Shown here: positions 14,982 to 59,958 of the stretch, piece after piece
Layout: every line of letters starts with the position of its first letter
How positions within the stretch are numbered: position 1 is the stretch's first letter
Source of the DNA: Candidatus Altimarinota bacterium
GTDB taxonomy: Bacteria > Patescibacteriota > Gracilibacteria > BD1-5 > UBA6164
NCBI GenBank assembly: GCA_035905775.1
Contig: JAMIGJ010000044.1
Location: 2-64,001, forward strand
Direction of reading: 5' to 3'
Length of the DNA stretch: 64,000 nucleotides
Translations under genes and position numbers: made by a program
Notes under the pieces: model-generated
What the model saw: the letters and a program-made list of their open reading frames with translations, nothing else
What the model was told of the DNA's origin: nothing
Database searches by the model: none

Positions 14982-15052
14982 CCTTCACCTAAGCTTTCCC
15001 AAGATAGCCCACATACAATTTTTCACCCTCAAGGTGTAGGGGAGAAATGGGG
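14982..15052 (-). repeat. PE-1-related palindromic element (divergent variant)
   Basis: The minus strand reads CTCCCCTACACCTTGAGGGTGAAAAATTGTATGTGGG. It resembles the copy at 27088-27145. Confidence 0.35.
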
Positions 15053-15556: not shown

Positions 15557-15570
15557 AAAAGCTATTTACA

Positions 15571-15609
15571 AAAAAAACTCTCTCAAAGAATTTTCTTTGA
15601 GAGAGTTTT
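15571..15609. terminator. bidirectional terminator hairpin, copy 1 of an identical 38-bp repeat
   Basis: Sequence AAAAAACTCTCTCAAAGAATTTTCTTTGAGAGAGTTTT sits between convergent genes. It is identical to the copy at 17059-17096. Confidence 0.75.
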
Positions 15610-15611
15610 AT

Positions 15612-17058: not shown

Positions 17059-17096
17059 AAAAAACTCTCTCAAAGAATTTTCTTTGAGAGAGTTTT
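17059..17096. repeat. copy 2 of the identical 38-bp hairpin (terminator downstream of tRNA-Gln)
   Basis: Exact repeat of 15571-15609, located 13 nt from the tRNA-Gln 3' end. Confidence 0.75.
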
Positions 17097-17109
17097 TTAG
17101 TTTTAAAAT

Positions 17110-17236: not shown

Positions 17237-17284
17237 TGTAGCTTCTTGCTCCTTTCTTCAAGAGGAAAGATTCAGGAAAGAGTT
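17237..17284 (+). repeat. PE-1 palindromic element copy
   Basis: TGTAGCTTCTTGCTCCTTTCTTCAAGAGGAAAG followed by ATTCAGGAAAGAG. Lies between tRNA-Gln and the rplL stop. Confidence 0.65.
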
Positions 17285-17291
17285 ATTCAAA

Positions 17292-17902: not shown

Positions 17903-18556
17903 TTACTCAGCTTTTGCTTCTTCTGTTGCAGGAGTTTCAGTAGGTACTTCTTCAGACTTTGCTTCAGTTGGAGCTTCTTCTGTTTTCGCTTCAGGAGCTG
18001 CATCTTCAACTTTTGCTTCTTTCTTTGCTTCGAGTTTTCCAACTACATCTTTTCCTTGAGTTTCAAGGTCTTTCGCAGCAGCATCAAACCAGCGAGCCAA
18101 TCCAGCAAGAGGAGCTTGCATAGATCCAACGAGTCGTCCAAGAAGGGTTTCTCGGCTTGGCATACCAGCAATTGCTTTGGTTGCTGCTTCATCCTGAAGT
18201 TCTCCTTCAAAGATAGAAACCGTCCAATTTACTTTTTCACCTTTCGTTTTTGTAACGACTTCATTTACTTTTGCAAGTCCTGCAATCGCATCATCGTTCG
18301 AACATACCATTCCAATTTGTCCTGGAAGGGTTTTGAGATCAATATCGATATTGAGCACATTTTTAATCGCTTTCACGATAATCGTCTTTTTTGCAACCGT
18401 ATAGTTCGCGTTTACAGATCGAAGACTTTTTCTCATTGCTTCAAATTCACTTACAGAAAGTGCGTTTGTTTTTGCAAAACCTATTGATTTTGCTGCTTTA
18501 ATTTTCGCTTCTAGATCTGCGATAATCTCTGCTTTTTGTTGTTTTGTTACTGCCAT
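17903..18556 (-). CDS. rplJ: 50S ribosomal protein L10 with acidic C-terminal extension
   Basis: L10 N-terminus MAVTKQQKAEIIADLE. Upstream of rplL. 217 aa with an E/A/K/T/P-rich tail. No TGA. Confidence 0.9.
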   Translation of the reverse strand: MAVTKQQKAEIIADLEAKIKAAKSIGFAKTNALSVSEFEAMRKSLRSVNANYTVAKKTIIVKAIKNVLNIDIDLKTLPGQIGMVCSNDDAIAGLAKVNEVVTKTKGEKVNWTVSIFEGELQDEAATKAIAGMPSRETLLGRLVGSMQAPLAGLARWFDAAAKDLETQGKDVVGKLEAKKEAKVEDAAPEAKTEEAPTEAKSEEVPTETPATEEAKAE

Positions 18557-18822
18557 AATATTGGTTTAAGCAAGTAGGGTATAATATGTAAGCATATATA
18601 AAAAATCTCTTTGCGAGAGCAAAGAGAAAGTTTTTGGTATTTTAAAAATACATTCAAAAAATCGACTCTTTTGTCTCGATAGGTCTTACGTGACTTTGCC
18701 TATGGTCTTCAACAAAATATATGTTTACGGAGAGTATTATAGTGATATTTTTATGCAGTCAAGTTTTTTGCGAGAGAAATATATTTTTCATTATCTTTGC
18801 TTGATATTTTTCAAAAAAATGT

Positions 18823-18850
18823 TTGACAATTCTCGCAAAACCTATAGCAT
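18823..18850 (+). promoter_or_regulatory. sigma70-like promoter of the ncRNA gene
   Basis: TTGACA at 18823-18828, a 16-nt spacer, then TAGCAT at 18845-18850. Confidence 0.4.
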
Positions 18851-18856
18851 ACTAGG

Positions 18857-19198
18857 TATCCTCTCGGTAAAACAGCGAGTTGGACACGAGTAGCTCCCAT
18901 GGGTGGGGGCTAAAGATAAACGCGCAGAAGCGCAAAGGAGTAAAGTTATGTTCTGTCAAACAGGGAACCAAAATCCAGCCCCATTTATGGGGCAGAATCA
19001 ACAGGAACCCGAAAACGGGTCGGATGTCGAGCAGCCTCGAATGCAACTGAAACCTCAACGTGATGTTGAGTGTGAATGTTGCGGCTTTCCCAAGTCAATG
19101 CACATGGGGCCTTGCGGAGTTAATAGCAGATAACTGTCTATAACTCCATGAAATCGACCCGCGCAAGTTTACAGGCCTGCGCGGGTCATTCTTTTTTT
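18857..19198 (+). ncRNA. rnpB: structured ncRNA, candidate RNase P RNA
   Basis: Locally GC-rich with its own promoter and terminator. Blocks resemble RNase P: GGAGTAAAGTTATG (P4 5' strand), CAGGGAACC, ATGCAACTGAAAC, GTGAATGTTGCGG, CCAAGTCAATG, and GCAGATAACT that can pair with AGTTAT. Confidence 0.45.
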
Positions 19199-19212
19199 AA
19201 ATATTCTACTAC

Positions 19213-19247
19213 AAAAAAATCTCATACATATATGTATGAGATTTTTT
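19213..19247. terminator. bidirectional terminator (rpmE)
   Basis: AAAAAAATCTCATACATATATGTATGAGATTTTTT, a perfect hairpin flanked by A and T runs. Confidence 0.7.
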
Positions 19248-26140: not shown

Positions 26141-26205
26141 AGAACTTGAGTGGAAAATATTGTATGTATTTTATAGAAAAAATGAGTAATATCTAGAAAA
26201 AATAA

Positions 26206-35869: not shown

Positions 35870-36976
35870 ACTTAAATTATCTCCAAACTCCATTTCCTCT
35901 ACAAAACTCTCCTCATATCCTCTTACTTTGAGATTTTCAAAGACAGTAAAATCATGTGTTCCCGACTGGATTTGCGCGTAACACACAAGATAAGGGATTT
36001 CAAAACAATTGTAGGACTTCACTTCGGGAGGTCGAACTGAAAGTTCAAGATTATATTTTTTCTGAAAAGATTGTTGTATCATTGCTCGAGGATTTCCCGA
36101 GTTTTTTCCGATGAGAAAAGGGGAGAATGGAGAGTTCTGCGAAAAATACTTCTTATGATTTTCGTGTAAGATACATATGACGTAAGCTTCACGAGTAGGG
36201 AAGGAACTTTTTTTCTTTTCGACTACTGGTTCTAAACTTCCTTGAGTTTGGTAAAATTTTGATTCTTGGAAAGGATATGTTTCCCAGTCAATTCACGAAA
36301 CATTATTGAGAGAAATCGTTGCTCCATAATCCATGAGAGCATTATTGATATCGCGAGATATATTTGTAGCCCCTTTCTCTTTTCAAGGGAGAGGATTCAG
36401 GAGAGAGTTATGAAACTCTCTCATCTGCCCTAGTAACTCCTCTTTCTCCTCTTTCGTCAGCTTTTGAAACTTTGTTCCAAAATAATATCGGGAAAATATT
36501 TTTTCGAGATTGGTATCAAAACTGAGTGTTGGGATATCATAAGCAAAGGCTCGGATAGCTTCAGCCGTATAGGGTCAAACTCAGGGAAGAGTTCGGAGTT
36601 TTTCTGTTTCATGTGGAAAAACTCATCCAAAATCAGTAACTACTTTTTGTGCGGTTTTGAGCATATTACGAGCTCGACTATAGTATCCAAGTCATTTATA
36701 GTAGGGAAAGAAATCTTCATAGCTACACGCTGCGAGGTCTTCCAACGTTGGAAACGCTTTCAAAATAGTTTCAAAATAGAGTTTGACTCGTTCGACTTGT
36801 GTTTGCTGGAGCATCGTTTCTGCAAGCCATACTCGATATCCCAGAGTCTTTTCATCAAAATTATAATCCCTCCAAGGAAGATTTTTTCTTCCATTTTGAA
36901 GATACCATGTTTGTAACTCAGAAAATGGAAATTTTGGAAGCATATTTTGTATATTGCTTGAAAAGATATTTTTCAT
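35861..36976 (-). CDS. mutY: A/G-specific adenine glycosylase MutY lacking the Fe-S cluster cysteines
   Basis: Motifs LPWR, VWLAETMLQQTQV, G(TGA)LGYYSRARN, LPG(TGA)VG(TGA)PYTA and NNALMDYGA. 371 aa in one frame, all triplets checked. Confidence 0.85.
36364..36409 (+). repeat. PE-1 palindromic element copy inside mutY coding sequence
   Basis: TGTAGCCCCTTTCTCTTTTCAAGGGAGAGG followed by ATTCAGGAGAGAG. Read antisense, it encodes NSLLNPLPGKEKGATN. Confidence 0.7.
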
Positions 36977-43461: not shown

Positions 43462-43534
43462 TTTTTATTGCTTCTCATTTGTAAAAAATATATTTTTCAC
43501 TACCATAGGGGAAATATATTTTTTTATTGCATGT

Positions 43535-45238
43535 ATGCGCTACAATATACGGGTTGCAGGAGCTGCAGGTCTGGGGATGAACTCAACGGCAGACATCATC
43601 GTGGAAGTCTTTGCGGAGCTCGGGTATCTTGTCAATACCGATATCGAGTATCAATCTCTGATTAAAGGATGAGTCAATTATTTTGACATCTTTGTATCAG
43701 ATCGATCAAAATATATTTCAAAATATGTGGATGTGCTTATCGCGCTTGATAGTCTCAATCTCGCTGCGTGGCTCAAGGATCTCAAGTCTGGAGCTTGTAT
43801 CATCACGAATCAAAAAAATATCGAAAAGCTTGAGGCAAAAGGGCAAGATTTTTCTGCATATAATCTCCTGCCAGTTGCCAGTGACGATAAGTATGATAAT
43901 ACCTATCTTATCAGTATTTTTTCCAAACTTTTCGGACTTCCTGCGCATCTGCTTGAGGAGAAAATAGCAAAAATATTTGCAAAAAAATGACCAGATGTCG
44001 TCGCTCAAAATATTGCTCTGTTTCAAAATATTTTACAAAGTTATGATATCCCAGCTCATATCAGCTTTCCAAAGTTTGACTCCATTGGTCCAGCTCGTCC
44101 TGTCAGCTATGGAAATAAGATGCTCGCACAAGGGGCAATCGATAATGGACTTGAATATTACTCTGCTTATCCGATGACTCCAGCATCAACGGTACTTTCT
44201 GAAGTGATTAAATCTAAAAAAGTTCCATACTTGCAGGCAGAGGATGAAATCTCAGTTGCGATGAGCGCACTTGGTGCGAGCTTTGCAGGGAAGAGGTCTA
44301 TGGTTGGGACATCGGGAGGAGGTTTTGCACTCATGGTCGAGTCTATCTCGTTTGCCATACAGGCAGAGTTGGGGCTTTCGATGATACTCGCTCAGCGAGC
44401 AGGTCCAAGTACGGGAACTCCTACCTTTCATGAACAGGGAGATCTCAATCTCGCTCTGAATCCAAGTTTTGGGGATTTTGATCATATCGTGATTGCTCCA
44501 AGTACGCTCGAAGATGCCTATTATCTCTCAGGATATTCTCTCAATCTTACTCAAAAATATCAAACCATCGTCATCGTCCTCATCGATAAACAGTTCTCAG
44601 ACGGAAAGGCAACCCTCGAAGAAGAACTCAAAACTGCAGGAATCAACCGTGGAAAGCTCGAAATGACTCCAGCAAGTGACTTTAAACGATATGCGCTCAC
44701 AGACGACGGAATTTCTCCATACTCTATCCCAGGAACTCCAAACGGAGACTTTATCGCAACGAGTTATGAGCACGATGAGTTTGGGGCAACAACAGAAGAT
44801 ACAGACATGAAAATGAAGATGACCGAAAAGCGCTGGAAAAAACTCGAAAATTTTTATGAAAAAGAAGGGATATGTGGGTATGAGGTGTTTCACTCAGAGA
44901 CCGGTCTCGTATGAGACCGGTCTCAAGCAGGACTTAGCCCAAAAAAAATGCTTCTCACAACGAGTTACACGAGTTATACCGCAAAAGAATTTATCAAAAA
45001 TAATCCTGAGTTTGGACTCATCATCGTAAAATTTCTCAAGCCACTTGATACAAGACTTCGAAACGAACTCGTAGGAAAGTCAGAAATCATCTTTGTAGAA
45101 AGCAACTACTCAGGACAACTCGAAAACTATATCACCAAAGAACTTGGACTGGCCTATATCGACGGACTCAAAATCTCAAGACTGCGAAAATATGACCTCT
45201 ATCCATTTTACTATGAGGATTTTGAAACGCTAAAATAG
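43535..45238 (+). CDS. korA: 2-oxoacid:ferredoxin oxidoreductase, fused gamma-alpha subunit
   Basis: N-terminal gamma-like domain IRVAGAAGLGMNS, then an alpha domain YSAYPMTPAS, GTSGGGFALM. 567 aa, 3 TGA, TAG stop. Confidence 0.85.
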
Positions 45239-50908: not shown

Positions 50909-51790
50909 ATGATGAAGATTTTCAGCTTTATAGCCTTATTTTTCCTTGTTTTTCTTGTTTCTTGTCAAAAAAAAGAATCACAAGAAATGAGTATTTCAAC
51001 TCCTCAAGAAACCCCTATCACTCAAACAGCAGCTCTTATGGAAACTCCACTTCATACCACACTTGCAACAGATCCTTATACACTCACAGGATCAAGCTAT
51101 CAATTTAGCATCAATGATGAATCCATCAGGATCACTCCCATTGCACACGCTACCCTGATACTTGAGTGGGCAGATCAGGTACTCTATATCGATCCAGCAG
51201 AAGCACTGGAGTCATATACGAATTTCCCAAAACCTACTGCCATACTTGTGACGCATGAGCATGGAGATCATCTCAATCCTGAAGTACTCGAAGCACTCAT
51301 GCAAGAGGAGGTTGCACTTATCGTGAACCCTGGAGTTTTTGAAAAAATATCACCTGAACTCCAAAAAAAAGCCCAAGTGATGAAAAATGGTGATATTCTT
51401 GATGTACTTGGATTTACAATCGAAGCTGTACCTGCCTATAATGTCCGTGAAGAAGCACAAAACTATCATCCAAAAGGTAGGGATAATGGATATGTGATAC
51501 AAAAAAATGATACTAGAATCTATATTTCAGGGGATAGTGAAGATACTCCAGAAATGAGAGCTTTGAGTGATATTGATTTAGCCTTTATATCGATGAATCT
51601 CCCATATACGATGCCGGTTGAATCAGCGATTTCATGAGTCCTTGCATTTGCTCCTAAGTTTGTATTTCCGTATCATTACAGAGGCCAAGACGAGAATACA
51701 GATATAAACCTCTTTAAATCAGAAGTAGAAGGACAAAATCTCGATATTGAAGTTATACTTCATGATTGGTATAAAAATGCAACAGAGTAA
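50909..51790 (+). CDS. MBL-fold metallo-hydrolase lipoprotein
   Basis: Lipobox LVSC, THEHGDH, and a SGDSEDT region. One TGA read-through to TAA at 51788-51790. Confidence 0.75.
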
Positions 51791-52346
51791 TCGCATTCGC
51801 TGTGGCTGGGTGAATCCCACAAATGAACTCTATGTTCACTATCATGACGAAGAGTGGGGAATCCCAGTACATGATGACAGAGTGCTGTTTGAGTTTTTGA
51901 TTCTCGAAGGAGCGCAAGCAGGACTTTCATGGGAAACGATTTTAAAACGACGCGAAGGCTACAAAAACGCTTTCTGTGACTTTGATGTCAAAAAATGCTC
52001 AGAACTCAGTGACGAAGCACTCAAAACTATTTTGAAAGATGAACGCATTATTCGCAACCGACTCAAAGTATTTTCCGTACGCAAAAATGCTCTTGTATTT
52101 CTTCAGATTCAGAGCGAATTCGGGAGTTTCTCGAATTATCTCTGGAACTTTGTCGGAGGAAAAGTAGTAAAAAATCATCCAAAAACTCTTTCTGAGGTTC
52201 CAGCAAAAACTGAACTTTCAGACCGTATCTCAAAAGACCTCAAAAAACGAGGCATGAGCTTCGTCGGTTCGACCATCATCTATGCCTATCTGCAAGCTGT
52301 CGGAGTCGTGGATGATCATATCGAGGGATGCTTTTGTAAAAACTAA
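51777..52346 (+). CDS. tag: DNA-3-methyladenine glycosylase I
   Basis: Motifs RCGW, YHDEEWG, EGAQAGLSW and the C-terminal His/Cys zinc site DDHIEGC. Overlaps the previous gene by 14 nt. Confidence 0.9.
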   Translation: MQQSNRIRCGWVNPTNELYVHYHDEEWGIPVHDDRVLFEFLILEGAQAGLSWETILKRREGYKNAFCDFDVKKCSELSDEALKTILKDERIIRNRLKVFSVRKNALVFLQIQSEFGSFSNYLWNFVGGKVVKNHPKTLSEVPAKTELSDRISKDLKKRGMSFVGSTIIYAYLQAVGVVDDHIEGCFCKN

Positions 52347-52350
52347 TTTT

Positions 52351-52396
52351 CTCGCACTTTTCCAAAAAATACATACAATCTTTGTATGTATTTTTT
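52351..52396 (+). terminator. TP cassette copy 1 (terminator hairpin with embedded promoter-like hexamers)
   Basis: CTCGCA, 17 nt, TACAAT, inside AAAAAATACATAC-AATCTTT-GTATGTATTTTTT. Begins 5 nt after the tag stop. Confidence 0.65.
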
Positions 52397-52407
52397 AGTT
52401 TTCCCCC

Positions 52408-53169
52408 ATGCTCTCCAAAGAAAAAATCAAGCAGATTCGTAAACTCCACGATAAAAAATGACGTACTGAGTCAGGACTTTTTTTGGTCGAAGGACGAAAG
52501 ATGATTCTCGAACTTTTCGCAAGTGATTGGAAAGAACACATCGAAGAACTCTATGTAAGTGAAAAACTGTTTGAAGAGATTGCAGCATCTTTCCCTTTCC
52601 AAGCAAAAGAAATCAAGAGAGAGGTATGTATTTGAGATACAGAAACTATCTCCAAAATCTCGACTCTGGAAAATAATAGCGATGGAGTTGCAATAGTGAG
52701 ACAACAATCTCCCGCAACAAGTACGGTATGACAATTCAGAGACTCGTGGACCCTCGTTCTCGATGGGATTCGCGACCCAGGAAATATGGGAACGATACTA
52801 CGAACCGCAAGTTGGTTTGGAATAGAGCATATCGTGTGTTCGCAGGACTCTGTAGAACTCTATAATCCCAAAGTCGTGAGTGCGACGATGGGAACTCTCT
52901 TTCACCTCAATATTTCCTCCCAAAATCTCGAGGATTTTTATAAAAATAATACCCTTCCCGTGTATGGAGCTGAGCTTGGATGAACTAATATTGGTGAAAT
53001 AGTATTTCCAAAATCAGGAGTTCTCGTCATGGGAAGCGAATCACATGGAATCTCAGAAATCTCACGAAAATATATGACGCAGGGAGTGTTGATTCCAAAA
53101 ATCGGATACGGTGAATCTCTCAATGTCGGGATTGCAACGGGGATTTTACTCTCGCATATTGTGAAATAA
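52408..53169 (+). CDS. SpoU/TrmH-family RNA 2'-O-methyltransferase
   Basis: Motifs LDGIRDPGNMGTILRTA, VMGSESHGI and ESLNVGIA. 5 in-frame TGA. Confidence 0.85.
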
Positions 53170-53498
53170 TGAAAGCACTTCCAGAACTTTTAGTATATTT
53201 TCTCTCAGATTGCCTAGAGGGAAATAGAAACTATACGACACGACGCATGTTTGGAGGCTATGGAGTCTATTTTCGTGGAAAGATATTTGCGATATATGCT
53301 TTTGAACGCATTTATTTTAAAGTGTGAGAACACAATAAAGCAGATTTTCTGGAAAAAAATGCACGTATTTTTAGCTACGAAAAGCAAGGAAAAATAGCAA
53401 ATATCTCCTACTATGAACTCCCAGAAGAGATTATGGAAGAGAGAGAAGAGTTAGAAAAGTGGATAGAGAAGGCTTTAAATAATTGACATAAATTATAG
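53169..53498 (+). CDS. TfoX N-terminal domain protein
   Basis: RRMFGGYGVYFRGKIFA...YFKV. Its start shares one nt with the upstream TAA. TAG stop. Confidence 0.65.
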
Positions 53499-53546
53499 AT
53501 ATGTATAATATATCTACCTTAAAATTTAGAATAACAAATATAACTT

Positions 53547-53804
53547 ATGAATAAACCAGTATCACAAGAAGATATATCTTGAGAATCACTTGATGAGATT
53601 TTAAAAGGAATTTCAAGTGAAATTTCGTCTGCTTCAGGGATTACACTGCATCGCATCCAAACACGACTTGCCTGATTATTACTAGGTACTAATGATAAAA
53701 ATGCTGAAAGAAAAATTCTTAATGTTACAGAATATTGTAATTCTAAAATTCGCAAATCGCTTTGAAGTTTCACTCCTAGTAGGAGCAAACTGAGAAGAAG
53801 ATAA
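53547..53804 (+). CDS. small hypothetical protein (85 aa)
   Basis: Code-25 ORF (3 TGA) running ATG to TAA, followed by a TP cassette. Confidence 0.4.
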
Positions 53805-53805
53805 T

Positions 53806-53847
53806 TTCACAAAATATAAAAAATACATACAATCTCGTATGTATTTT
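53806..53847 (+). terminator. TP cassette copy 2
   Basis: TTCACA, 16 nt, TACAAT, inside AAAAATACATAC-AATCTC-GTATGTATTTT. Confidence 0.6.
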
Positions 53848-53869
53848 ATTTTCCTCCAATCTAAAAAAA

Positions 53870-54781
53870 ATGCCAGCAATTCTACAAATACAAAACCTGA
53901 AAAAATCCTATAAAGGAAACGAAGTCCTGAAATGAGTCAATCTCGAAGTACAAGAAGGTGATTTTTTTGCACTTTTGGGGCATAATGGAGCCGGAAAATC
54001 TACCACGATTGGGATTATGACGAGCCTCGTGAATAAAGACTCAGGAACGGTAAAAATAGGGGGAGTCGATATCGATGAAAACTTTTCTCTGGCTAAAACC
54101 CATATTGGAGTCGTGCCACAAGAGTTCAATTTTGATATCTTTGCGAAAGTCGAGGATATCTGTCTCTTTGCAGCAGGATACTATGGAGTTTCAAGAGACG
54201 AAGCGAAAAGACGAGCTGAGTTCTATCTCACGAAACTTTGACTTTGGGAAAAACGTGAGAGTAAAGCAAAAGAACTCTCAGGAGGGATGAAACGAAGACT
54301 CATGATAGCGCGAGCGCTCATGCACGAACCAAAGATTCTCGTCCTCGATGAACCCACAGCAGGAGTCGATGTCGAGCTTCGAAAGACGATGTGGGAATTT
54401 ATCCGTGAACTCAATGAAAAGGGAGTGACGATTATCCTCACGACCCACTATCTCGAAGAAGTAGAGGAGCTCTGTCGCAATGTTGCGATTTTGTCCGGAG
54501 GACAAATCGTGCATCAGGGAAGCGTGAAAGAACTTCTTTCCACCCTGGATGAAGAGATATTTGTGTTGGATTTGAAAGATAAACTCCAAGAAATACCAAA
54601 ACGATTTGCAGAGTATAATCCAAAACTCGTAGATGCAAAAACGCTCGAACTGAGCGTAAAAGCAGCGGAAAGCATAAATGATATATTTTCTATCCTCACG
54701 GAAAAGTGAGTCCAGGTTCTCTCGATGCGAAACAAATCCAACAGACTCGAGCAACTCTTTTTAAAACTTGCGAAGAAGTAA
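53870..54781 (+). CDS. ABC-2 type transporter ATP-binding protein
   Basis: Motifs GHNGAGKST, LSGGMKRRL and LVLDEPTAGVD. 3 in-frame TGA. 303 aa. Confidence 0.9.
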
Positions 54782-54785
54782 TTTC

Positions 54786-54837
54786 TTATTCCTCATCTGA
54801 ATCTTCTCCTTTTACAAAAAAGGAGAAGGGCTACAAA
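54786..54837 (-). repeat. PE-1 palindromic element copy
   Basis: The minus strand reads TGTAGCCCTTCTCCTTTT-TTGT-AAAAGGAGAAG followed by ATTCAGATGAGGAATAAG. Confidence 0.7.
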
Positions 54838-54854
54838 CAAGAATCCTAAAAACA

Positions 54855-54905
54855 CTGCAGCCTCTTTCCTTTGAATTCAAAAGAAAGAATTCAAGATAGG
54901 AATTT
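54855..54905 (+). repeat. PE-1 palindromic element copy
   Basis: CTGCAGCCTCTTTCCTTTGAATTCAAAAGAAAGA followed by ATTCAAGATAGGAAT. Inverted partner of 54786-54837. Confidence 0.65.
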
Positions 54906-54925
54906 ATTTCCTAAAATATCCTCCC

Positions 54926-55681
54926 ATGACCGATCTCTATACTCTGATCTACAAAGAAGTTTTTCGCTTCTTGCGTGTTTGGAAGCAAACGCTTCTCCCA
55001 CCTGTTATCACAACCGTACTGTATCTTGCGATTTTCTGAAAATTTATCGGGGATAATATCTCTGTGGTTAAAGGACATAGCTACATCGATTTTATCTTTC
55101 CAGGGCTTCTCATGATGGCTGTGATTATGGCAAGTTACTCCAATACCTCAAGTAGTTTTTTTGGAGCAAAGTTTCAAAAATCGATCGAAGAGCTTTTTGT
55201 CTCTCCGATAGCTCACTGGAAGATCCTTGCGGGTTTTGCTATCTGAGCGGTACTTCGAGCTCTGATTGTTGCAGGATGCGTGTTTCTGGTAGGAGCTTTT
55301 ATGACGGATATTCATATCGAGCATTATGCTCTTGCTCTTGTATTTGTTTTTCTTACAGCTCTGCTTTTTGCATTTTTAGGACTCTATAACGCACTCTTTG
55401 CAAAAAGCTTTGATGATATATCGATTATTCCAACCTTTCTTATCACCCCGATGACCTATCTTTGAGGAGTGTTTTATCCGATTTCCGTACTCGGGCAACC
55501 ATGGCAATTTATTTCTCAGTTCAATCCCATTCTCTATATGATAAATGGTCTTCGCTATAGTTTTATCTCAGTTTCAGACATCAATATTTGGATTTCTCTC
55601 GGGATGCTTATTTTTTGTAATATTGCATTTATCATCGTTCTTTTGAGACTTCTCAAGAGGGGATATGGGATACGAAGTTAA
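54926..55681 (+). CDS. ABC-2 type transporter permease
   Basis: Four track fragments lie in one frame joined by TGA. 6 TM pattern. 251 aa. Confidence 0.85.
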
Positions 55682-55688
55682 AAAAATT

Positions 55689-55735
55689 CTCGCAAATTTT
55701 TAAAAAACACATACAATCTCTGTATGTATTTTTTT
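55689..55735 (+). terminator. TP cassette copy 3
   Basis: CTCGCA, 17 nt, TACAAT, inside AAAAAACACATAC-AATCTCT-GTATGTATTTTTTT. Confidence 0.65.
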
Positions 55736-55736
55736 A

Positions 55737-55834
55737 TTTGTAGCCCCTCGTCTTTCGTATGAAAGAACAAGTGAAGAAAGGAGTACTTGTACGACTATTC
55801 TGAAGTTGAACTGAAAGAGAGGATTCAGGTGAAG
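55737..55834 (+). repeat. PE-1-related composite element
   Basis: Starts TTGTAGCCCCTCGTCTTTCGTATGAAAGA and ends GAGAGGATTCAGGTGAAG. Longer than the other copies. Confidence 0.45.
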
Positions 55835-55851
55835 ATTATTATAAAAAGATT

Positions 55852-56478
55852 ATGAAACAACAAGTTATTTTCCTCAATGGAGGGAGTCCAAAAGAAAATT
55901 TTAAGGATTATTATGACATGCTCGAGAAGCTGGAATACAATCCCGCAGATGTAAATTTTAAAAACTGGAATAAAACTTTGGGAGAAAGACTCGGGGAAAA
56001 CTATGAGTATCTCAGAGCCCCATTCCATGATAGAGATTTTGCAGACTATAGAGCATGGAAGATTATGTTTGAAAAAATGCTTCCATTTTTAGATCAAGAG
56101 ATTATGATAGTCGCTACCTCATTAGGGGGGAGTTTTATTCTCAAATATCTTGGGGAAAATGATGGAATACTTCATCCAAAATCAGGAAAGAAAATTATCA
56201 TCAAAAAACTCTTTCTGATTGCAACAGCAGTGAGTGATACTCCAGATGAGATTATGTGAAACTTTGCTTTTGATTTGGAGGAAGTATATAGTAGAGTAGC
56301 AAGATGGTGTGAAAAAATCTATATCTATCATAGCACGGATGATACTATCGTGATGTATGAAGATGCTCTCAAAATAAAAAATTATTTTCCAGATGCAATC
56401 TTTCGTGATTTTCATGATAGAGGGCATTTTTATCTTGAAACTGAACTTCCAGAACTTATAGAAGATATTAAAAATTAA
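55852..56478 (+). CDS. alpha/beta hydrolase (YdeN/RBBP9-like)
   Basis: Nucleophile elbow ATSLGG, with late Asp and His (HSTDD, DRGHF). One in-frame TGA. Confidence 0.7.
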
Positions 56479-56542
56479 GACTCAGTTGAGTTTTGAGTTT
56501 TTTCTATAGAATCATTTTATATCATCTCATAAAATTATATAT

Positions 56543-57424
56543 ATGCGAAGCGAAGCGAATACCCGAAGGGTAAAAAAAATAACAAAATGCGTGATTCCAG
56601 CAGCAGGGATGGGAACGAGATTTCTTCCAGCAACCAAAGCACTTCCAAAAGAGATGTTTCCGATTGTGGATAAACCCGTGATGCAATATCTCGTCGAAGA
56701 AGCCATTGCAGCAGGGTGTACTGATATCATTATCATTACTGGACGTAGTAAACGTGCGATAGAGGATCATTTTGATAGTAATCCTGAGCTCGAAGCACGA
56801 CTGGATAGTTCTGGAAAATTTGAGTATCTTCAAAAAGTAAAATCTGCTTCAGGTGGAGCCAATATCGTCTATGTACGACAGCCCTATCCAAAAGGAGATG
56901 GTGATGCTATATTGCGAGCGAAAAACCTCATCGGAGATGAACCTTTTTTGGTGCTTTTCGGAGATGATATTATTGATAATCCTATAACAGCAGCAGAGCA
57001 ACTCGTAAAAAAATTCGAAGAAACAGGCAGAGTAGTGATAGCAACCATCGAAGTCCCAGCGAGTGAAGTAAAAAATTATGGAATCGTAGAAACAACAGAA
57101 AATCTTGAGGTTACTAAATTTCTTGAAAAGCCAAAGTCAGGTACAGATTCTCGTAGAGCAGCAATTGGGAAATATATCCTGACTCCAGATATATTTCGCT
57201 ATCTCGAAACGGCAGATTCGAGTGTTGGAGATGGAGAAATTCGTCTTGCAGATGCCTTTATTTCCATGCTTCAAAATGATAGTATTTTTGCACTCGATAC
57301 TCTCGGAACTCGCTACGATACAGGAAGTAAAATAGGATATCTCAAAGCCTGTATCGCATACGCTATGAAAGATGAAGAAGTAAAAGATGAGTTACAAGAG
57401 TTTTTAAAAAAAATCACTTACTAA
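56543..57424 (+). CDS. galU: UTP--glucose-1-phosphate uridylyltransferase
   Basis: Motifs VIPAAGMGTRFLPATKALPKEM, PKGDGDA and EKP. No TGA. 293 aa. Confidence 0.9.
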   Translation: MRSEANTRRVKKITKCVIPAAGMGTRFLPATKALPKEMFPIVDKPVMQYLVEEAIAAGCTDIIIITGRSKRAIEDHFDSNPELEARLDSSGKFEYLQKVKSASGGANIVYVRQPYPKGDGDAILRAKNLIGDEPFLVLFGDDIIDNPITAAEQLVKKFEETGRVVIATIEVPASEVKNYGIVETTENLEVTKFLEKPKSGTDSRRAAIGKYILTPDIFRYLETADSSVGDGEIRLADAFISMLQNDSIFALDTLGTRYDTGSKIGYLKACIAYAMKDEEVKDELQEFLKKITY

Positions 57425-57426
57425 TT

Positions 57427-57472
57427 CTCGCACTTCATTAAAAAATACATACAATACTGGTATGTATTTTTT
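57427..57472 (+). terminator. TP cassette copy 4
   Basis: CTCGCA, 17 nt, TACAAT, inside AAAAAATACATAC-AATACTG-GTATGTATTTTTT. Confidence 0.65.
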
Positions 57473-57484
57473 AATGCTATTTGT

Positions 57485-58723
57485 ATGCTTCAACTCCTTT
57501 CTGATCCCGATATCCCTTGCTTTTCGCAAATGCAAGATGTTATCACTTCACTTCTTGGGAAACGAGAAAATCTTGGTTTTATCGATGTCGATGAAACGGT
57601 TGATACTGCTGAGATTCATGAATATATTGCAAAGATTTGAGACCAATTTGATACTATGGTCGTACTCGGTATCGGTGGTTCTGCACTGGGGACGAGAGCT
57701 GTGTTTGAAACACTCAGAGGCAAGTACCACAATCAAAAGCAAGCAGTCAAAAAACTCTATATCCTCGATAATATCGATCCTGAAAGTATTACGGATTTGC
57801 AGGAGCAACTCGATCTTTCAAAAACACTTTTTTGCGTGATTTCCAAGTCTGGAACCACGGTGGAGATTCATGCACTCACAACGTATTTTATGAATCTCAC
57901 GAAATCTCGTGTAGACAAATGGAAAGAGCATTTTTGCTATGTGCTTGGAGAAAATTATTCAAAAAAAGCAGAAATACAGAAACATTTCCAGACCTTTTCT
58001 CTTGCAGATAATATTGGAGGAAGATTCTCGGTATTCACTCCCGTAGGACTTCTCCCACTTGCCTTCGCTGGAGTCGATATTGATGCCTTACTTGCTGGAG
58101 TACAACACGCAAAACAGAGATTTTTGTCTGAGGATATAGAGCAAAATACAGCTCTGAGACTTGCGTTCTTACAATACTATTTTTATGAAAAAGAGGGAAA
58201 AAATATTTGTGTGCTGTTTCCTTACTCGAGTCGTTTGGGGGGAATCGGAGCGTGGTATACGCAGCTTCTTTCTGAAAGCATCGGGAAAGACAGTATCGGG
58301 ATCACTCCTATCACCGCAGTCGGAGTGACCGACCAACACTCGGAGCTTCAGCTCTTTCAGGATGGTCCCAGAGATAAGTTTTTTATGAGTCTACAAATCG
58401 CAGAGCACATAAAAAATCCTCTCATCGATGCAGAAAATCACTTTGGTTTTGCTGAATTGCTTGAAATCGAGAGATATGGGACGCTCACTTCTCTCCAAAA
58501 CGACGAAGTCCCACTTGCAGCTCTCCAAATAGATGATATCTCAGAATCGTCACTTTCCGAGCTTCTCTACATGCTTGAGTTCCAGATTGCCTATCTTGGT
58601 GAACTTTTCGGGATTAATGCCTTTGATCAACCCGGAGTCGAGAAATCAAAAATTCTTACCAAGCAAAAACTCGCACAAGATTTTCCCAATCTTGATTTGG
58701 CTACGAAGTCTCAGGAGTTTTAA
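57485..58723 (+). CDS. pgi: glucose-6-phosphate isomerase (short form)
   Basis: Motifs VVLGIGGSALG, ISKSGTT, GGRFSV and DQPGVE. ATG 57485 is joined through one TGA. Confidence 0.85.
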
Positions 58724-58736
58724 ATTTCATCATTTC

Positions 58737-58782
58737 TTCGCATTTTTCTAAAAAATACATACAATACCTGTATGTATTTTTT
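58737..58782 (+). terminator. TP cassette copy 5
   Basis: TTCGCA, 17 nt, TACAAT, inside AAAAAATACATAC-AATACCT-GTATGTATTTTTT. Confidence 0.65.
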
Positions 58783-58791
58783 AGTTTTTCT

Positions 58792-59958
58792 ATGAAAAAA
58801 ATAGTTACGATTTGAGGAGGAAATGGACAATCCAATCTCCTGGATGCTATGCAACGATATTTCCCAAAAAAGAAATATCATATCTCTAGTATCGTCTCGA
58901 TGTCGGATGATGGTCGTACAACAGGGGAGTTGATGCGAAAGTTTCAGGAAGATCTGGGACTGCATCTCCCACCTCCAGGAGATCTCCGTAGATGTCTGTT
59001 TATGATGTCGAATTCAGAGCGAAAAGATGAGTTCGAGCAGTTTCTTGAGACGATTATAGAGCGAGATATCCAGATTTCAGAGCTCACGATTTGGGACTAT
59101 TTTAGGCTGGTAGGTGCTGATGAGACTTTTAAAAAGCATTTACAAAAAATGAAGTCTCTTTCCCTTTTCAAGGGAGAGAATTCAAGCGAGAGTTTCTTAA
59201 ATTTCACTCTCCCTCTCAGGTCTTCTATCAAGGGGCACAAAGTCGGAAATATCCTGATGGCAAATCTCTACTACAATCTAGAAAAAGATTATTATAAGAT
59301 GCTTGAGGTGATGCACGAGATACTCGAAGTTGAGGCAGATATTATCCCAGTTACGACGCAGCGAGCTTATATCCGCGCTGTTTTATGAAATGGGGAAGTG
59401 ATAGAAAGCCAAGATAGAATTTCCAATGTGGCTTCCTATACCGCAGGGATTGCAGATCTCGAACTCATGGAAGACTCAAAACATGCCTACCAACATAAAA
59501 ATGTATTCAAGGCAATAAAACAAGCTGACTACATCATCATCACTCCAGGGGATCTCTTTACCTCTATCATCTCCAACTTTGTGATTGGAGGAGTGAGTGA
59601 CGTGATTAAAAAATCCGATGCAAAAATCATCTATATTGGAAATTCGACTAATAAAGGAGGAGAAACACAATGACTGACACATCTGGATATCATTAATAAA
59701 ATCGAGAGATTTTTAGGACGCAAGATAGATATATTTATCTGTAATAACAAAAAACTTGAGCTCACTCTCGAAGAAAAACAAAGCTTTCAAAGTAATATCT
59801 CTGTAAAAGGAGGGGATTATCTCTATCTCTCAAAAGGGGAGAAAAAAGAGCTCGAAGCCCGTAAAGTAAAAGTCTTCGAAGCTCCTCTGCTTGATGCACA
59901 TACCTTCTATAAACATGATAAAAAAGCTCTCACCGAGCTTTTAGAAAAGATTTTGTAG
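58792..59958 (+). CDS. YvcK/CofD-family (UPF0052) protein
   Basis: Motifs IG(TGA)GGNGQSNLL, SMSDDGRTTG, PPGDLRRC and ITPGDLFTSI. 388 aa, TAG stop. Confidence 0.8.
59153..59193 (+). repeat. PE-1 palindromic element copy inside the YvcK-like coding sequence
   Basis: CTCTTTCCCTTTTCAAGGGAGAGA followed by ATTCAAGCGAGAG. About 85 percent identical to the mutY copy. Encodes KSLSLFKGENSSESF. Confidence 0.7.

What the first reader, a model, noticed from the sequence alone, without database searches (positions are those of the whole stretch)
52351..58782. Five-copy intergenic cassette that looks like a terminator and a promoter fused into one hairpin
The same roughly 46-nt unit recurs within 14 nt downstream of the stop codons of tag, the 85-aa gene, the ABC-2 permease, galU and pgi. 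It reads (C/T)TCGCA, exactly 17 nt (16 in copy 2, which has TTCACA), then TACAAT. It is embedded in the hairpin AAAAAATACATAC, a 6-7 nt loop, GTATGTATTTTTT. The hairpin with its T-run is a textbook intrinsic terminator. The conserved hexamer spacing matches a -35/-10 promoter whose -10 (TACAAT) spans the left arm and loop. Transcripts starting about 7 nt downstream would begin inside the right arm and could not fold the terminator. One module would then end the upstream transcript and restart the downstream gene, acting as a compact insulator between unrelated housekeeping genes. A related hairpin (CATACATATATGTATG) terminates rpmE at 19213-19247.
Basis: partly seen in the sequence, partly recalled or inferred. 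Interest (0 to 1): 0.65.

Follow-up and report, generated by a model that had tools for sequence, protein, structure and literature searches.

The report
Promoter built into a terminator hairpin
Five near-identical 46-base intergenic units in a tiny-genome Gracilibacteria bacterium each combine a promoter for the next gene with a terminator-like hairpin, and the same units sit at the same gene junctions in distantly related genomes, so they are functional gene punctuation rather than chance repeats.

Summary
Five + strand copies of yTCGCA – 17 nt – TACAAT lie inside the hairpin AAAAAATACATAC / 6-7 nt loop / GTATGTATTTTTT. They fill five 60-77 nt gaps between same-strand genes at 52351-58782, and a covariance model finds no other copy in the 64 kb window.

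The host uses TGA as glycine (code 25, Gracilibacteria, from wastewater). I collected 20 further copies from 14 related contigs. They sit at the same junctions (tag>trmH, permease>hydrolase, galU>pgi, pgi>cofD) in genomes whose Pgi is only 49-56% identical and whose third codon positions are near saturation.

- **Promoter half, well supported.** 21 of 25 copies keep the box exactly 17 nt from TACAAT or TACACT. Three of the other four have a TTGACA-like hexamer at 15-16 nt instead. Two junctions keep box-17-TAnnnT after losing the hairpin. When genes are inserted, the cassette stays with the downstream gene.
- **Hairpin, selected for pairing.** There are two compensatory changes, and 96% of cells are paired. 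It has the A-tract/T-tract form of this clade's ordinary terminators, but its core stem is weak (-5 to -7 kcal/mol).

No usable RNA data exist, so start and end sites remain inferred. The arms are more conserved than pairing alone requires, and the box is not the genome's general -35. A 2026 preprint reports promoter-terminator coupling in bacteria generally.

The parts
52349..52396 (+). Cassette copy 1 (junction tag > trmH). Box CTCGCA 52351-52356, 17 nt spacer, -10 TACAAT 52374-52379, left arm 52364-52376, loop 52377-52383, right arm plus T-run 52384-52396. The trmH ATG is at 52408.
   Evidence: RNA fold -13.2 kcal/mol, z -7.0. Model score 74 bits. Orthologous copies in L007 and L009.
53805..53849 (+). 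Cassette copy 2 (junction 85-aa ORF > ABC ATPase). TTCACA 53806-53811, 16 nt spacer, TACAAT 53828-53833, arms 53818-53830 and 53837-53849, 6 nt loop, T-run broken by an A.
   Evidence: Fold -10.6 kcal/mol. Model score 45 bits. Relatives L007 and L021 have a different terminator/promoter at this junction, so this copy is a gain specific to this lineage.
55687..55735 (+). Cassette copy 3 (junction ABC-2 permease > alpha/beta hydrolase). Box CTCGCA 55689-55694, 17 nt spacer, TACAAT 55712-55717, arms 55702-55714 (one C.A mismatch) and 55722-55734.
   Evidence: Fold -8.4 kcal/mol. Model score 70 bits. Orthologous copies in L002, L007, L010, L011, L019 and L022. An RNA-run contig at 55553-55776 spans it.
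57425..57472 (+). Cassette copy 4 (junction galU > pgi). Box CTCGCA 57427-57432, 17 nt spacer, TACAAT 57450-57455, arms 57440-57452 and 57460-57472. The pgi ATG is at 57485.
   Evidence: Fold -16.7 kcal/mol. Model score 74 bits. Orthologous copies in L002, L016, L018, L019 and L021.
58735..58782 (+). Cassette copy 5 (junction pgi > cofD). Box TTCGCA 58737-58742, 17 nt spacer, TACAAT 58760-58765, arms 58750-58762 and 58770-58782. The cofD ATG is at 58792.
   Evidence: Fold -16.8 kcal/mol. Model score 71 bits. Orthologous copies in L004, L016, L018, L019 and L020, some with compensated stem variants.
51762..59958 (+). The syntenic block of same-strand genes punctuated by the cassettes: tag 51762-52346, trmH (SpoU) 52408-53169, tfoX-N 53169-53498, 85-aa ORF 53547-53804, ABC ATPase 53870-54781, ABC-2 permease 54926-55681, hydrolase 55759 (orthologues suggest 55853) to 56478, galU 56543-57424, pgi 57485-58723, cofD 58792-59958.
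   Evidence: ORFs called with TGA=Gly. Pfam. Block conserved in L002, L007, L018-L022.
43466..43535 (+). A promoter-in-hairpin module with unrelated sequence. TTGTAA, 16 nt, TACCAT, with the -10 in the loop of an A-tract/T-tract hairpin, between two + strand genes.
   Evidence: Fold -12.9 kcal/mol, z -2.6. This shows the architecture recurs without sequence homology.

Best explanation
Each unit is a compact composite of a promoter and a terminator-type hairpin, and it makes up essentially the whole intergenic region.

**Promoter.** The hexamer TACAAT (TACACT in some relatives) is the -10 element. The yTCGmA box exactly 17 nt upstream occupies the -35 position. Transcription of the downstream gene would start about 7 nt after the -10, at the A of GTATG in the right arm. 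That gives a U-rich leader of about 20-30 nt with no Shine-Dalgarno sequence and without the left arm, so this transcript cannot form the hairpin.

**Terminator.** A transcript arriving from the upstream gene contains both arms and the U-run. It can fold the 13-bp A/U-rich hairpin, which has the A-tract/stem/T-tract form of this clade's intrinsic (bidirectional-type) terminators. The core stem is weak, so termination is probably partial.

**Conservation.** The same bases serve as promoter spacer, -10 and initial transcribed region, and they must also pair. This probably explains why the arms are nearly frozen across genera.

**Shown:** the repeat itself; conservation at orthologous sites despite saturating divergence; fixed 17 nt spacing; conserved TA...T; compensatory stem changes; survival of the promoter half without the hairpin; association with the downstream gene.

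**Inferred:** the start site, actual termination and its efficiency, which protein reads the box, and any insulation or RNA-polymerase hand-over between termination and re-initiation.
For: **A real, local family.**
- There are five copies in the window, and the model finds none elsewhere in its 64 kb.
- 25 instances come from the window plus 14 related Gracilibacteria contigs, at the same junctions J1 (tag>trmH), J4 (permease>hydrolase), J6 (galU>pgi) and J7 (pgi>cofD).

**Divergence is large.** Pgi is 49-56% identical for L002, L016, L019, L020 and L022. Permease is 73-76% identical with third-codon identity 0.44-0.50. Even so, alignment columns 20-33 and 38-50 are at least 90% identical or invariant.

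**Promoter signature.**
- The box sits exactly 17 nt from the hexamer in 21 of 25 copies, although the spacer holds homopolymer runs and the A-run varies from 4 to 6.
- The hexamer positions T, A, C, A and the final T are invariant, while the four loop bases after it vary freely.
- Among the exceptions, W_J2 has TTCACA at 16 nt, L001 has TTGACA at 15 nt and L020_J7 has TTCATA at 16 nt.
- L002_J7 (CTCGCT-17-TAAAAT) and L021_J4 (CTCGTA-17-TATACT) keep the two hexamers but have no significant hairpin (z -1.1 and +1.3).
- All copies point at a downstream start codon. CATACAAT lies 33-48 nt upstream of the called start codons of the five cassette genes, and two further intergenic CATACAAT words lie 25 and 34 nt upstream of theirs.
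- After gene insertions (x183 in L018, x162 in L020, two - strand genes in L014) the cassette stays next to the downstream gene.

**Hairpin.**
- 96% of 325 cells are paired. Two pairs show changes on both sides: C-G to U-A in L016_J7, and A-U to U-A in L019_J7 and L020_J7. No shuffle out of 500 reaches the observed covariation score.
- L019 carries three different stems in one genome, which argues for pairing rather than one fixed protein site.
- Folding gives z-scores of -3.9 to -9.8.
- A-tract/stem/T-tract hairpins are the ordinary gene-end signal in all these genomes.
- Neighbouring junctions without a cassette carry ordinary terminators whose sequence is not conserved across lineages (J5).

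**The architecture recurs without homology.** See window 43466-43535, the ATATGTATCAT family in L020 and L022, and the ACATATATA family in L018 and L021.
Against: - There is no transcript-end evidence. RNA-run contigs are sparse, and raw-read RNA runs held no reads.
- One contig from an RNA-labelled run spans copy 3 end to end. That means read-through or DNA carry-over.
- The core stem is weak: -5.1 to -6.8 kcal/mol with 2 G-C pairs. Nine of the ten other terminators here fold at -7.9 to -16.8 kcal/mol.
- CTCGCA matches TTGACA at only 3 of 6 positions. Canonical TTGACA-17-TATAAT promoters exist in the same window. Box-17-TAnnnT is not enriched outside the cassettes (61 observed, about 70 expected). 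So the conserved TCG core is not explained by an ordinary sigma-70 -35.
- The arms are much more conserved than pairing requires. Five of 13 pairs never vary, and there are only two independent compensatory events.
- The hairpin is kept in L014 and, in altered form, upstream of the L018 hydrolase, where the upstream gene is divergent.
- galU-pgi-cofD are fused with no gap in L011, L020, L022, L023 and L024, so the module is dispensable.
Confidence: 0.6

Rival explanations
1. The unit is a promoter with a palindromic operator. The box and TACAAT form the promoter, and the 13+13 bp inverted repeat over the -10/+1 region is a double-stranded DNA site for a dimeric regulator. That regulator would co-regulate this block (trmH, ABC exporter, hydrolase, pgi, cofD). 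On this reading the hairpin-as-terminator is incidental.
For: - The arm sequence is nearly invariant at saturating divergence, more than pairing needs.
- Copies are few and confined to one syntenic block, as in a small regulon.
- The hairpin is retained where no same-strand upstream gene exists (L014, L018 hydrolase).
- The box is cassette-specific and not the general -35.
- galU, pgi and cofD/YvcK-like genes share a link to sugar-nucleotide and cell-envelope metabolism. This last point is my own knowledge, not tested here.
Against: - One genome (L019) carries three different stems (TACATAC, TACGTAC and TACTTAC/GTAAGTA) with compensation, which fits pairing better than one recognition sequence.
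- Loop length varies between 6 and 7 nt.
- The A-run and T-run flanks are exactly those of generic terminators in these genomes.
- No regulator gene was identified.
- The genes served have no single obvious pathway.
Confidence: 0.2
2. The hairpin acts on RNA as a processing or stability element rather than as a terminator. It would serve as a 3' stem-loop protecting the upstream mRNA, or as an RNase III-type cleavage site that separates a polycistronic transcript. The promoter reading could still hold alongside this.
For: - The weak core stem suggests leaky termination.
- An RNA-run contig crosses copy 3.
- The full 13-bp stem with A:U-tract pairing is stable (-8 to -17 kcal/mol).
Against: - There is no direct evidence.
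- The architecture is the same as the clade's ordinary terminators.
- Sense-strand G.U wobbles (5 cells) only slightly outnumber antisense-type C.A mismatches (2 cells), so strand specificity is unresolved.
Confidence: 0.1
3. The unit is a mobile or selfish short palindromic repeat (REP, MITE or Correia-like) that spread into intergenic sites. Its promoter-like hexamers would be carried along or arise by chance.
For: - Near-identical copies sit at several junctions.
- Copy 2 in the window is a lineage-specific gain at a junction that holds a different module in L007 and L021.
- L001 has a copy outside the block.
- The J1, J6 and J7 cassettes share TCGCACTTT beyond the functional boxes, which suggests common descent.
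Against: - Copy number is very low and local. There are 5 in 64 kb, all within 6.4 kb. Only four copies were found in one Gracilibacteria MAG (three by the exact pattern scan of GTDB representatives; a fourth, variant copy by a looser search) and two in another. The model finds no further copy in 234 kb.
- Copies are inherited orthologously, with junction-specific flanks, across genera.
- There are no terminal repeats beyond the hairpin, no target duplications, and a fixed orientation towards the downstream gene.
Confidence: 0.05
4. The unit is only a terminator. The box and TACAAT would look conserved simply because the copies are recent duplicates.
For: It has hairpin plus T-run architecture immediately after stop codons.
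Against: - Orthologous copies are conserved at 49-56% Pgi identity, while loop and spacer bases vary.
- Box-17-TAnnnT survives loss of the hairpin.
- The cassette follows the downstream gene.
- The model scores the sense strand at about twice the antisense strand (74 against 37 bits).
Confidence: 0.03

Closest known systems
Intrinsic (Rho-independent) terminators of the bidirectional A-tract/stem/T-tract type
   Same: A stem-loop directly followed by a T-run and preceded by an A-run, placed a few bases after a stop codon. Ordinary gene ends in this window and its relatives have the same outline.
   Different: The core stem is A/U-rich (2 G-C pairs, -5 to -7 kcal/mol). Its sequence is conserved across genera, whereas neighbouring ordinary terminators keep their structure but not their sequence. 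It also encloses a conserved -10 hexamer.
Sigma-70-type -35/-10 promoters
   Same: Two hexamers 17 nt apart. The -10 keeps A2 and T6 (TACAAT, TACACT, TATACT, TAAAAT). The unit lies 33-48 nt upstream of the called start codons. Canonical -35-like hexamers replace the box in some copies.
   Different: The usual box yTCGmA matches TTGACA at only 3-4 of 6 positions, yet its TCG core is conserved. It is not the general -35 of these genomes. The spacer and the initial transcribed region are sequence-conserved because they form the hairpin arms.
Coupled promoters and terminators in bacteria (bioRxiv 10.64898/2026.08.19.745784, 'Widespread coupling of promoters and terminators of transcription in bacteria', 20 Aug 2026)
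   Same: From the title and the start of the abstract, as shown by the search tool: initiation and termination sites of adjacent genes are extensively coupled. The text mentions tandem genes, read-through, -10 elements and Term-seq.
   Different: I could not open the full text, so the exact architecture described there is unknown to me. The case here is one sequence-conserved cassette, kept at orthologous junctions across genera of an uncultivated code-25 lineage, with the -10 at the left-arm/loop junction.
Short intergenic palindromic repeats with promoter or terminator activity (Neisseria Correia elements, enterobacterial REP/BIME); named from my own knowledge
   Same: Repeated intergenic inverted repeats that can supply promoter hexamers and terminator-like hairpins to neighbouring genes.
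   Different: Those elements are high-copy, dispersed across the genome, of variable orientation, and (Correia) bounded by terminal repeats with a TA duplication. This unit is low-copy and confined to one syntenic block. It always points at the downstream gene and is inherited orthologously.
Palindromic operators overlapping the -10/+1 region of promoters
   Same: An inverted repeat of 13+13 bp centred just downstream of the -10, nearly invariant in sequence.
   Different: Compensated stem variants coexist within one genome (L019). The flanks are A/T runs typical of terminators. No cognate regulator is known.

Membership tests
Intrinsic terminator | Stable, usually G+C-rich stem-loop | tested here: inconclusive
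   The full 13-bp stem folds at -8.4 to -16.8 kcal/mol with z -3.9 to -9.8. Without the A:U-tract pairs, the core is -5.1 to -6.8 kcal/mol with 2 G-C pairs, weaker than nine of the ten other terminators in the window.
Intrinsic terminator | Run of T/U immediately 3' of the stem | tested here: met
   T4-T7 directly follows the right arm core in all 25 family members.
Intrinsic terminator | Lies just downstream of a same-strand gene end | tested here: met
   All five window copies start 2-14 nt after a stop codon. Among relatives, L014 has a divergent upstream gene, and so does the separate ACATATATA-stem variant upstream of the L018 hydrolase.
Intrinsic terminator | RNA 3' ends map to the U-run | not testable with these tools
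   Only sparse RNA-run contigs exist, and no raw RNA reads were found.
Intrinsic terminator | Base pairing maintained by compensatory change | tested here: met
   Two pairs changed on both sides, 96% of cells paired, and no shuffle out of 500 reaches the covariation score. Only two independent events, so the support is modest.
Sigma-70-type promoter | -10 hexamer TAnnnT | tested here: met
   TACAAT in 22 copies and TACACT in 3. T, A, C, A and the last T are invariant columns, while the following loop bases vary.
Sigma-70-type promoter | -35 hexamer resembling TTGACA | tested here: inconclusive
   The box yTCGmA matches at 3-4 of 6 positions. Three of the four copies without the box have TTCACA, TTGACA or TTCATA. 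Box-17-TAnnnT is not enriched outside the cassettes.
Sigma-70-type promoter | Spacing of 17 +/- 1 nt between the hexamers | tested here: met
   Exactly 17 nt in 21 of 25 copies, 16 nt in 2, 15 nt in 1, and none in 1 rearranged copy.
Sigma-70-type promoter | Oriented towards, and close to, a downstream gene start | tested here: met
   In the window the CATACAAT word starts 33-48 nt upstream of the called start codon in all five copies. The cassette stays with the downstream gene after insertions.
Sigma-70-type promoter | Mapped primary transcription start about 7 nt after the -10 | not testable with these tools
   No 5'-end data are available.
REP / MITE / Correia-type mobile palindromic repeat | Many dispersed copies per genome | tested here: not met
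   Five copies lie within 6.4 kb of a 64 kb window. The model finds none elsewhere in the window and no unexpected copies in 170 kb of related loci. Only four copies were found in MAG GFS_3055: three by the exact pattern scan and one variant (L007_J4) by a looser search.
REP / MITE / Correia-type mobile palindromic repeat | Terminal inverted repeats with target-site duplication; variable orientation | tested here: not met
   No duplicated flank was seen in the alignment of 25 copies. Orientation is always towards the downstream gene.
Integron attC site | R''/R' core sites (RYYYAAC ... GTTRRRY) after each mobile gene cassette | tested here: not met
   No such cores occur in the unit. The flanking genes are housekeeping genes in conserved synteny.
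Transcription-factor operator | Inverted repeat with a fixed recognition sequence in all sites of one genome | tested here: inconclusive
   The sequence is nearly invariant overall. However, L019 has three stem variants, one of them compensated on both arms, and loop length is 6 or 7 nt.
Rfam RNA families | Match at gathering score | tested here: not met
   Only four tRNAs reach gathering score in the window.

The most novel reading that the evidence does not exclude
The cassette may be a dedicated 'stop-and-restart' signal read by a specific factor. That factor could be an alternative sigma or a protein recognising the TCGCA box and the frozen TACATAC arms. On this reading the terminator's release point sits on top of the embedded promoter, so RNA polymerase ending the upstream gene is handed directly to initiation of the next gene. 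This would give a small block of sugar-nucleotide and envelope genes equalised, insulated expression in a genome with almost no intergenic space.
Probability: 0.12. Interest if true: 0.75.

Novelty: new variant of a known kind. Interest (0 to 1): 0.5.

Why it matters
- **Gene-expression signals of an uncultivated lineage.** Nothing on promoters or terminators of Gracilibacteria turned up in the literature search. This cassette gives a concrete, testable promoter and terminator model for a code-25 lineage of the Candidate Phyla Radiation.
- **How a reduced genome saves space.** It packs two signals into one 46-nt unit that fills the whole gap between genes.
- **A natural example of promoter-terminator coupling.** A 2026 preprint reports this coupling as a general phenomenon, and here overlapping constraints have kept a non-coding sequence nearly unchanged across genera.
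- **Practical uses.** The unit and its model (R1) can mark transcription-unit boundaries when annotating such MAGs. It may also be a candidate compact insulator part for synthetic biology.
- **Open questions.** The unexplained conservation of the box and arms points to a possible unknown DNA- or RNA-binding factor.

Tried and rejected
1. **Transcript mapping.**
   - RNA-labelled runs that hold the region gave only a few contigs of 150-290 nt.
   - Four large 2026 metatranscriptomes gave zero reads.
   - So start and end sites could not be mapped.
2. **TCTCGCA as a genome-wide over-represented word** (an uptake-signal-like idea). It occurs 27 times against 18 expected under an order-3 Markov model, which is not significant, so I dropped it.
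3. **The box as the general -35 of this clade.** The loose pattern box-16/17/18-TAnnnT is not enriched outside the cassettes (61 against about 70 expected at 17 nt). Canonical TTGACA promoters are present.
4. **The generic promoter/terminator scanner.** It found 22 promoter-like sites against 22 expected. It flags copies 2 and 5 as promoters, and copies 4 and 5 as terminators, so it does not discriminate.
5. **Mobile repeat, integron attC or Xer-site readings.** Rejected on copy number, orthologous inheritance, missing core motifs and fixed orientation.
6. **Strand-specific wobble as a test of RNA against DNA pairing.** There are 5 sense-strand G.U cells against 2 antisense-type C.A cells, too few to decide.
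7. **A leaderless small ORF starting at the ATG in the right arm.** It is not in frame with the downstream genes, and the frame shifts with T-run length (by reading).
8. **Looking up window GalU by exact sequence.** Not on record.
9. **Reading the 2026 preprint.** It could not be opened under three id forms. Only the title, the start of the abstract and term counts are known.

Full report
**What organism this is.**
- The window has 37% G+C.
- It reads as long ORFs only if TGA is a sense codon.
- In a relative, the Walker A motif of the ABC ATPase reads G-H-N-(TGA)-A-G-K-T. In the window, the CofD N-terminal glycine loop reads T-I-(TGA)-G-G-N-G. So TGA codes for glycine, which is code 25.
- The nearest named relatives are Candidatus Gracilibacteria MAGs.
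- DNA runs holding the region come from activated sludge and wastewater.

- Five + strand units lie at 52349-52396, 53805-53849, 55687-55735, 57425-57472 and 58735-58782.
- Each has a box: CTCGCA three times, TTCGCA once and TTCACA once.
- The spacer is 17 nt, or 16 nt in copy 2.
- TACAAT follows, inside the hairpin AAAAAATACATAC / AAT+3-4 nt / GTATGTATTTTTT.
- The units start 2-14 nt after the stops of tag, an 85-aa ORF, the ABC-2 permease, galU and pgi. They end 10-27 nt before the next called ATG. Pfam confirms the gene names.
- Chance is excluded.
- A covariance model built from 25 family members finds exactly these five in the window, at 45-74 bits. The next best window hit is the rpmE terminator at 31 bits. 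The antisense strand scores about half the sense strand.
- Contigs from independent DNA runs cross copies 2, 3 and 4 with no differences.

**Related sequences.**
- An exact-pattern scan of one genome per species found the hairpin in two Gracilibacteria-type MAGs, plus four unrelated chance hits.
- A metagenome scan added nine contigs.
- Looking up Pgi homologues added seven more loci.
- The block ABC ATPase – permease – hydrolase – galU – pgi – cofD is syntenic in most of them.
- In total I collected 25 cassette instances at the same junctions: J1 tag>trmH, J4 permease>hydrolase, J6 galU>pgi, J7 pgi>cofD, plus copy 2 of the window and one copy elsewhere, L001.
- Divergence is large. Pgi identity to the window is 91% (L018), 82% (L021), 56% (L002, L016), 54% (L019), 52% (L020) and 49% (L022). 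Permease third-codon identity is 0.44-0.50 for the distant set.
- Orthologous copies share junction-specific flanks, such as AATGCT after J6, AGTTTTC after J1 and CTCGAA boxes at J4. So they are inherited copies, not copies homogenised within each genome.

**Evidence for a promoter.**
- In 21 of 25 copies a hexamer [C/T/A]TCG[C/A][A/T] lies exactly 17 nt upstream of TACAAT or TACACT.
- That distance never changes. Yet the spacer holds T-runs and an A-run that varies from 4 to 6, and the loop, the 3' T-run and the leader all vary in length.
- In the alignment, T, A, C, A and the last T of the hexamer are invariant, while the next four loop bases vary freely.
- Of the four copies without the box, three carry a hexamer closer to TTGACA: TTCACA at 16 nt, TTGACA at 15 nt and TTCATA at 16 nt. 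The fourth (L014) was cut by a rearrangement just upstream of the A-run.
- At L002_J7 (CTCGCT-17-TAAAAT) and L021_J4 (CTCGTA-17-TATACT) both hexamers and their spacing remain, but no hairpin does (z -1.1 and +1.3).
- Where extra genes were inserted (x183 in L018, x162 in L020, two - strand genes in L014), the cassette stayed next to the downstream gene and not next to the old upstream stop codon.
- CATACAAT also occurs 25 and 34 nt upstream of two other genes in the window, at 26165(-) and 15013(+), without a hairpin.

**Evidence for a selected hairpin of terminator type.**
- The 13-pair helix is paired in 96% of 325 cells.
- Two pairs changed on both sides: C-G to U-A in L016_J7, and A-U to U-A in L019_J7 and L020_J7. 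No shuffle out of 500 reaches the covariation score, and shifted registers pair far worse.
- L019 has three stems in one genome: TACATAC, TACGTAC with a G.U pair, and TACTTAC/GTAAGTA.
- Hairpins flanked by an A-run and a T-run are the normal gene-end signal in the window and all relatives, with many unrelated stems.
- Junctions without a cassette are either fused (0-10 nt) or carry such ordinary hairpins. The sequence of those ordinary hairpins is not conserved between lineages (J5).
- The cassette hairpin is the only terminator candidate in its 60-77 nt gap.

**Weak points.**
- Without the A:U-tract pairs, the stems fold at only -5.1 to -6.8 kcal/mol. Nine of the ten other terminators in the window fold at -7.9 to -16.8 kcal/mol, and one at -3.7. 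So termination, if it occurs, is probably partial.
- One contig from an RNA-labelled run crosses copy 3 completely. That would fit read-through, but it could be DNA.
- No other RNA evidence could be obtained.
- The arm sequence is nearly invariant across genera, with only two compensatory events. That is more conservation than pairing needs.
- The conserved TCG core of the box is not what a TTGACA-reading sigma would select. Canonical TTGACA-17-TATAAT promoters exist in the same window, and the box is not enriched at -35 positions elsewhere.
- The hairpin persists in L014, and as an altered ACATATATA stem upstream of the L018 hydrolase. In both places the upstream gene is divergent.
- These points leave room for a sequence-specific reader, such as an operator-binding regulator or a dedicated sigma or activator. 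It could act in addition to, or instead of, the terminator role.

**Mechanism proposed.**
- RNA polymerase coming from the upstream gene transcribes both arms and the U-run, forms the hairpin and terminates with moderate efficiency.
- Holoenzyme binding the box and TACAAT starts about 7 nt after the -10. In four of the five copies the seventh base is the A of GTATG, by reading.
- That transcript lacks the left arm and cannot terminate itself.
- The overlap of spacer, -10 and initial transcribed region with the two arms, plus the pairing requirement, would slow sequence change.
- These steps are inference from anatomy and conservation.

**The architecture is general in this clade.** Sequence-unrelated versions occur in several places:
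- Window 43466-43535 has TTGTAA-16-TACCAT with the -10 in the loop.
- In L020 and L022 the module AAAAAATATGTATCAT...GGTACATATTTTTT carries a TAGAA box.
- In L018 and L021 there are ACATATATA stems.
- At J2 of L007 and L021 the -35 (TTGCAG/TTGCAC) lies in the loop of an ordinary terminator, and TATACT follows the T-run.
- More distant Gracilibacteria (L023, L024) fuse galU-pgi(-cofD) with no gap and lack the cassette.

**Comparison with what is known.**
- The unit combines two textbook elements. A bioRxiv preprint of 20 Aug 2026 (10.64898/2026.08.19.745784) reports that promoters and terminators of adjacent genes are extensively coupled in bacteria. I saw only its title, the start of its abstract and term counts.
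- No paper on Gracilibacteria promoters or terminators was found.
- The unit is not a REP, MITE or Correia-type repeat, not an integron attC site and not an Rfam family.
- I therefore rate it a new variant of a known kind. It is a sequence-conserved, low-copy promoter-in-terminator cassette kept at orthologous junctions across genera of a code-25 lineage.

**Verdict.**
The promoter half is strong. The hairpin is real and terminator-like but weak, and its exact role is unproven.
- Interest is 0.5.

Noticed in passing
window 36366-36413(+), 17238-17287(+), 17233-17189(-), 54857-54905(+), 54834-54797(-), 59152-59195(+), 26253-26208(-), 52582-52628(+), about 55743-55850; L009:2033-2293, L011:1833-1879, L004:7758-7804, L019:7304-7352, L017:870-919: A second, unrelated repeat of about 48 nt: GTAGCYYCTTTCYCTT-loop-AAGRGAGAGGATTCAGGAGAGAGTT, with a hairpin core.
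- It occurs in intergenic DNA and in 5' leaders just after some cassettes.
- It also occurs in frame inside genes. It reads ..LNPLPGKEKGAT.. in a MutY-like gene, and it lies inside cofD and trmH.
- L009 trmH carries a 43-aa in-frame insertion with two inverted copies.
- It resembles the Rickettsia palindromic elements that insert into coding sequence (my own knowledge).
- It has no Rfam match at gathering score.
   Followed up: partly
window 55768-55819: A related strain in DNA run X4 lacks 52 nt here, with one T in their place. The site is in the long leader between cassette copy 3 and the likely true hydrolase start at 55853. This is an indel polymorphism in the region that resembles the second repeat. 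Contigs also break or branch near 54786-54812 and 59156-59170, where that repeat lies.
   Followed up: no
window 18842-19210: About 370 nt with no credible ORF under code 25. It is locally richer in G+C with paired-looking GC stretches (for example GACCCGCGC...GCGCGGGTC). It lies between a TTGACA-containing region at about 18824 and the L31 terminator. It may be an unannotated structured RNA, but Rfam gave only weak sub-threshold hits.
   Followed up: partly
window 18590-18730 (-): A sub-threshold match to the ribosomal protein L10 leader (RF00557, 32.5 bits against a gathering score of 44, E 0.002), upstream of the - strand gene at 17903-18556.
   Followed up: no
window 15568-15611 and 17059-17098: The same long terminator hairpin occurs twice, 1.5 kb apart: AAAA(AA)CTCTCTCAAAGAA..TTCTTTGAGAGAGTTTT, with a 12-bp core and -17 kcal/mol. 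One copy is next to tRNA-Gln.
   Followed up: no
window 43466-43535: Another promoter-in-hairpin with unrelated sequence: TTGTAA-16-TACCAT inside AAAAAATATATTTTTC...GGGGAAATATATTTTTT, between two + strand genes.
   Followed up: partly
L020:4444-4506, L022:4801-4863, L022:5773-5836: A second conserved hairpin-promoter family in relatives: AAAAAATATGTATCAT-loop-GGTACATATTTTTT. It has a TAGAA box about 17-18 nt upstream of TATCAT, and G.U wobbles on the sense strand.
   Followed up: partly
L007:2970-3040, L021:1456-1548: At the junction before the ABC ATPase these relatives use a different overlap. An ordinary terminator holds a -35-like TTGCAC/TTGCAG in its loop, and TATACT follows 16 nt later, right after the T-run.
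   Followed up: no
window 26162-26180 (-) and 15010-15019 (+): AAAATACATACAAT (the left arm plus the -10 of the cassette) occurs 25 nt upstream of a - strand gene with no right arm. ACATACAAT occurs 34 nt upstream of the gene at 15047. So CATACAAT seems to be a favoured -10 region in this organism.
   Followed up: partly
whole window: TGA is read as glycine (code 25). Standard table-11 ORF lists fragment most genes: mean ORF length is 144 aa against 176 aa with TGA as sense.
   Followed up: yes
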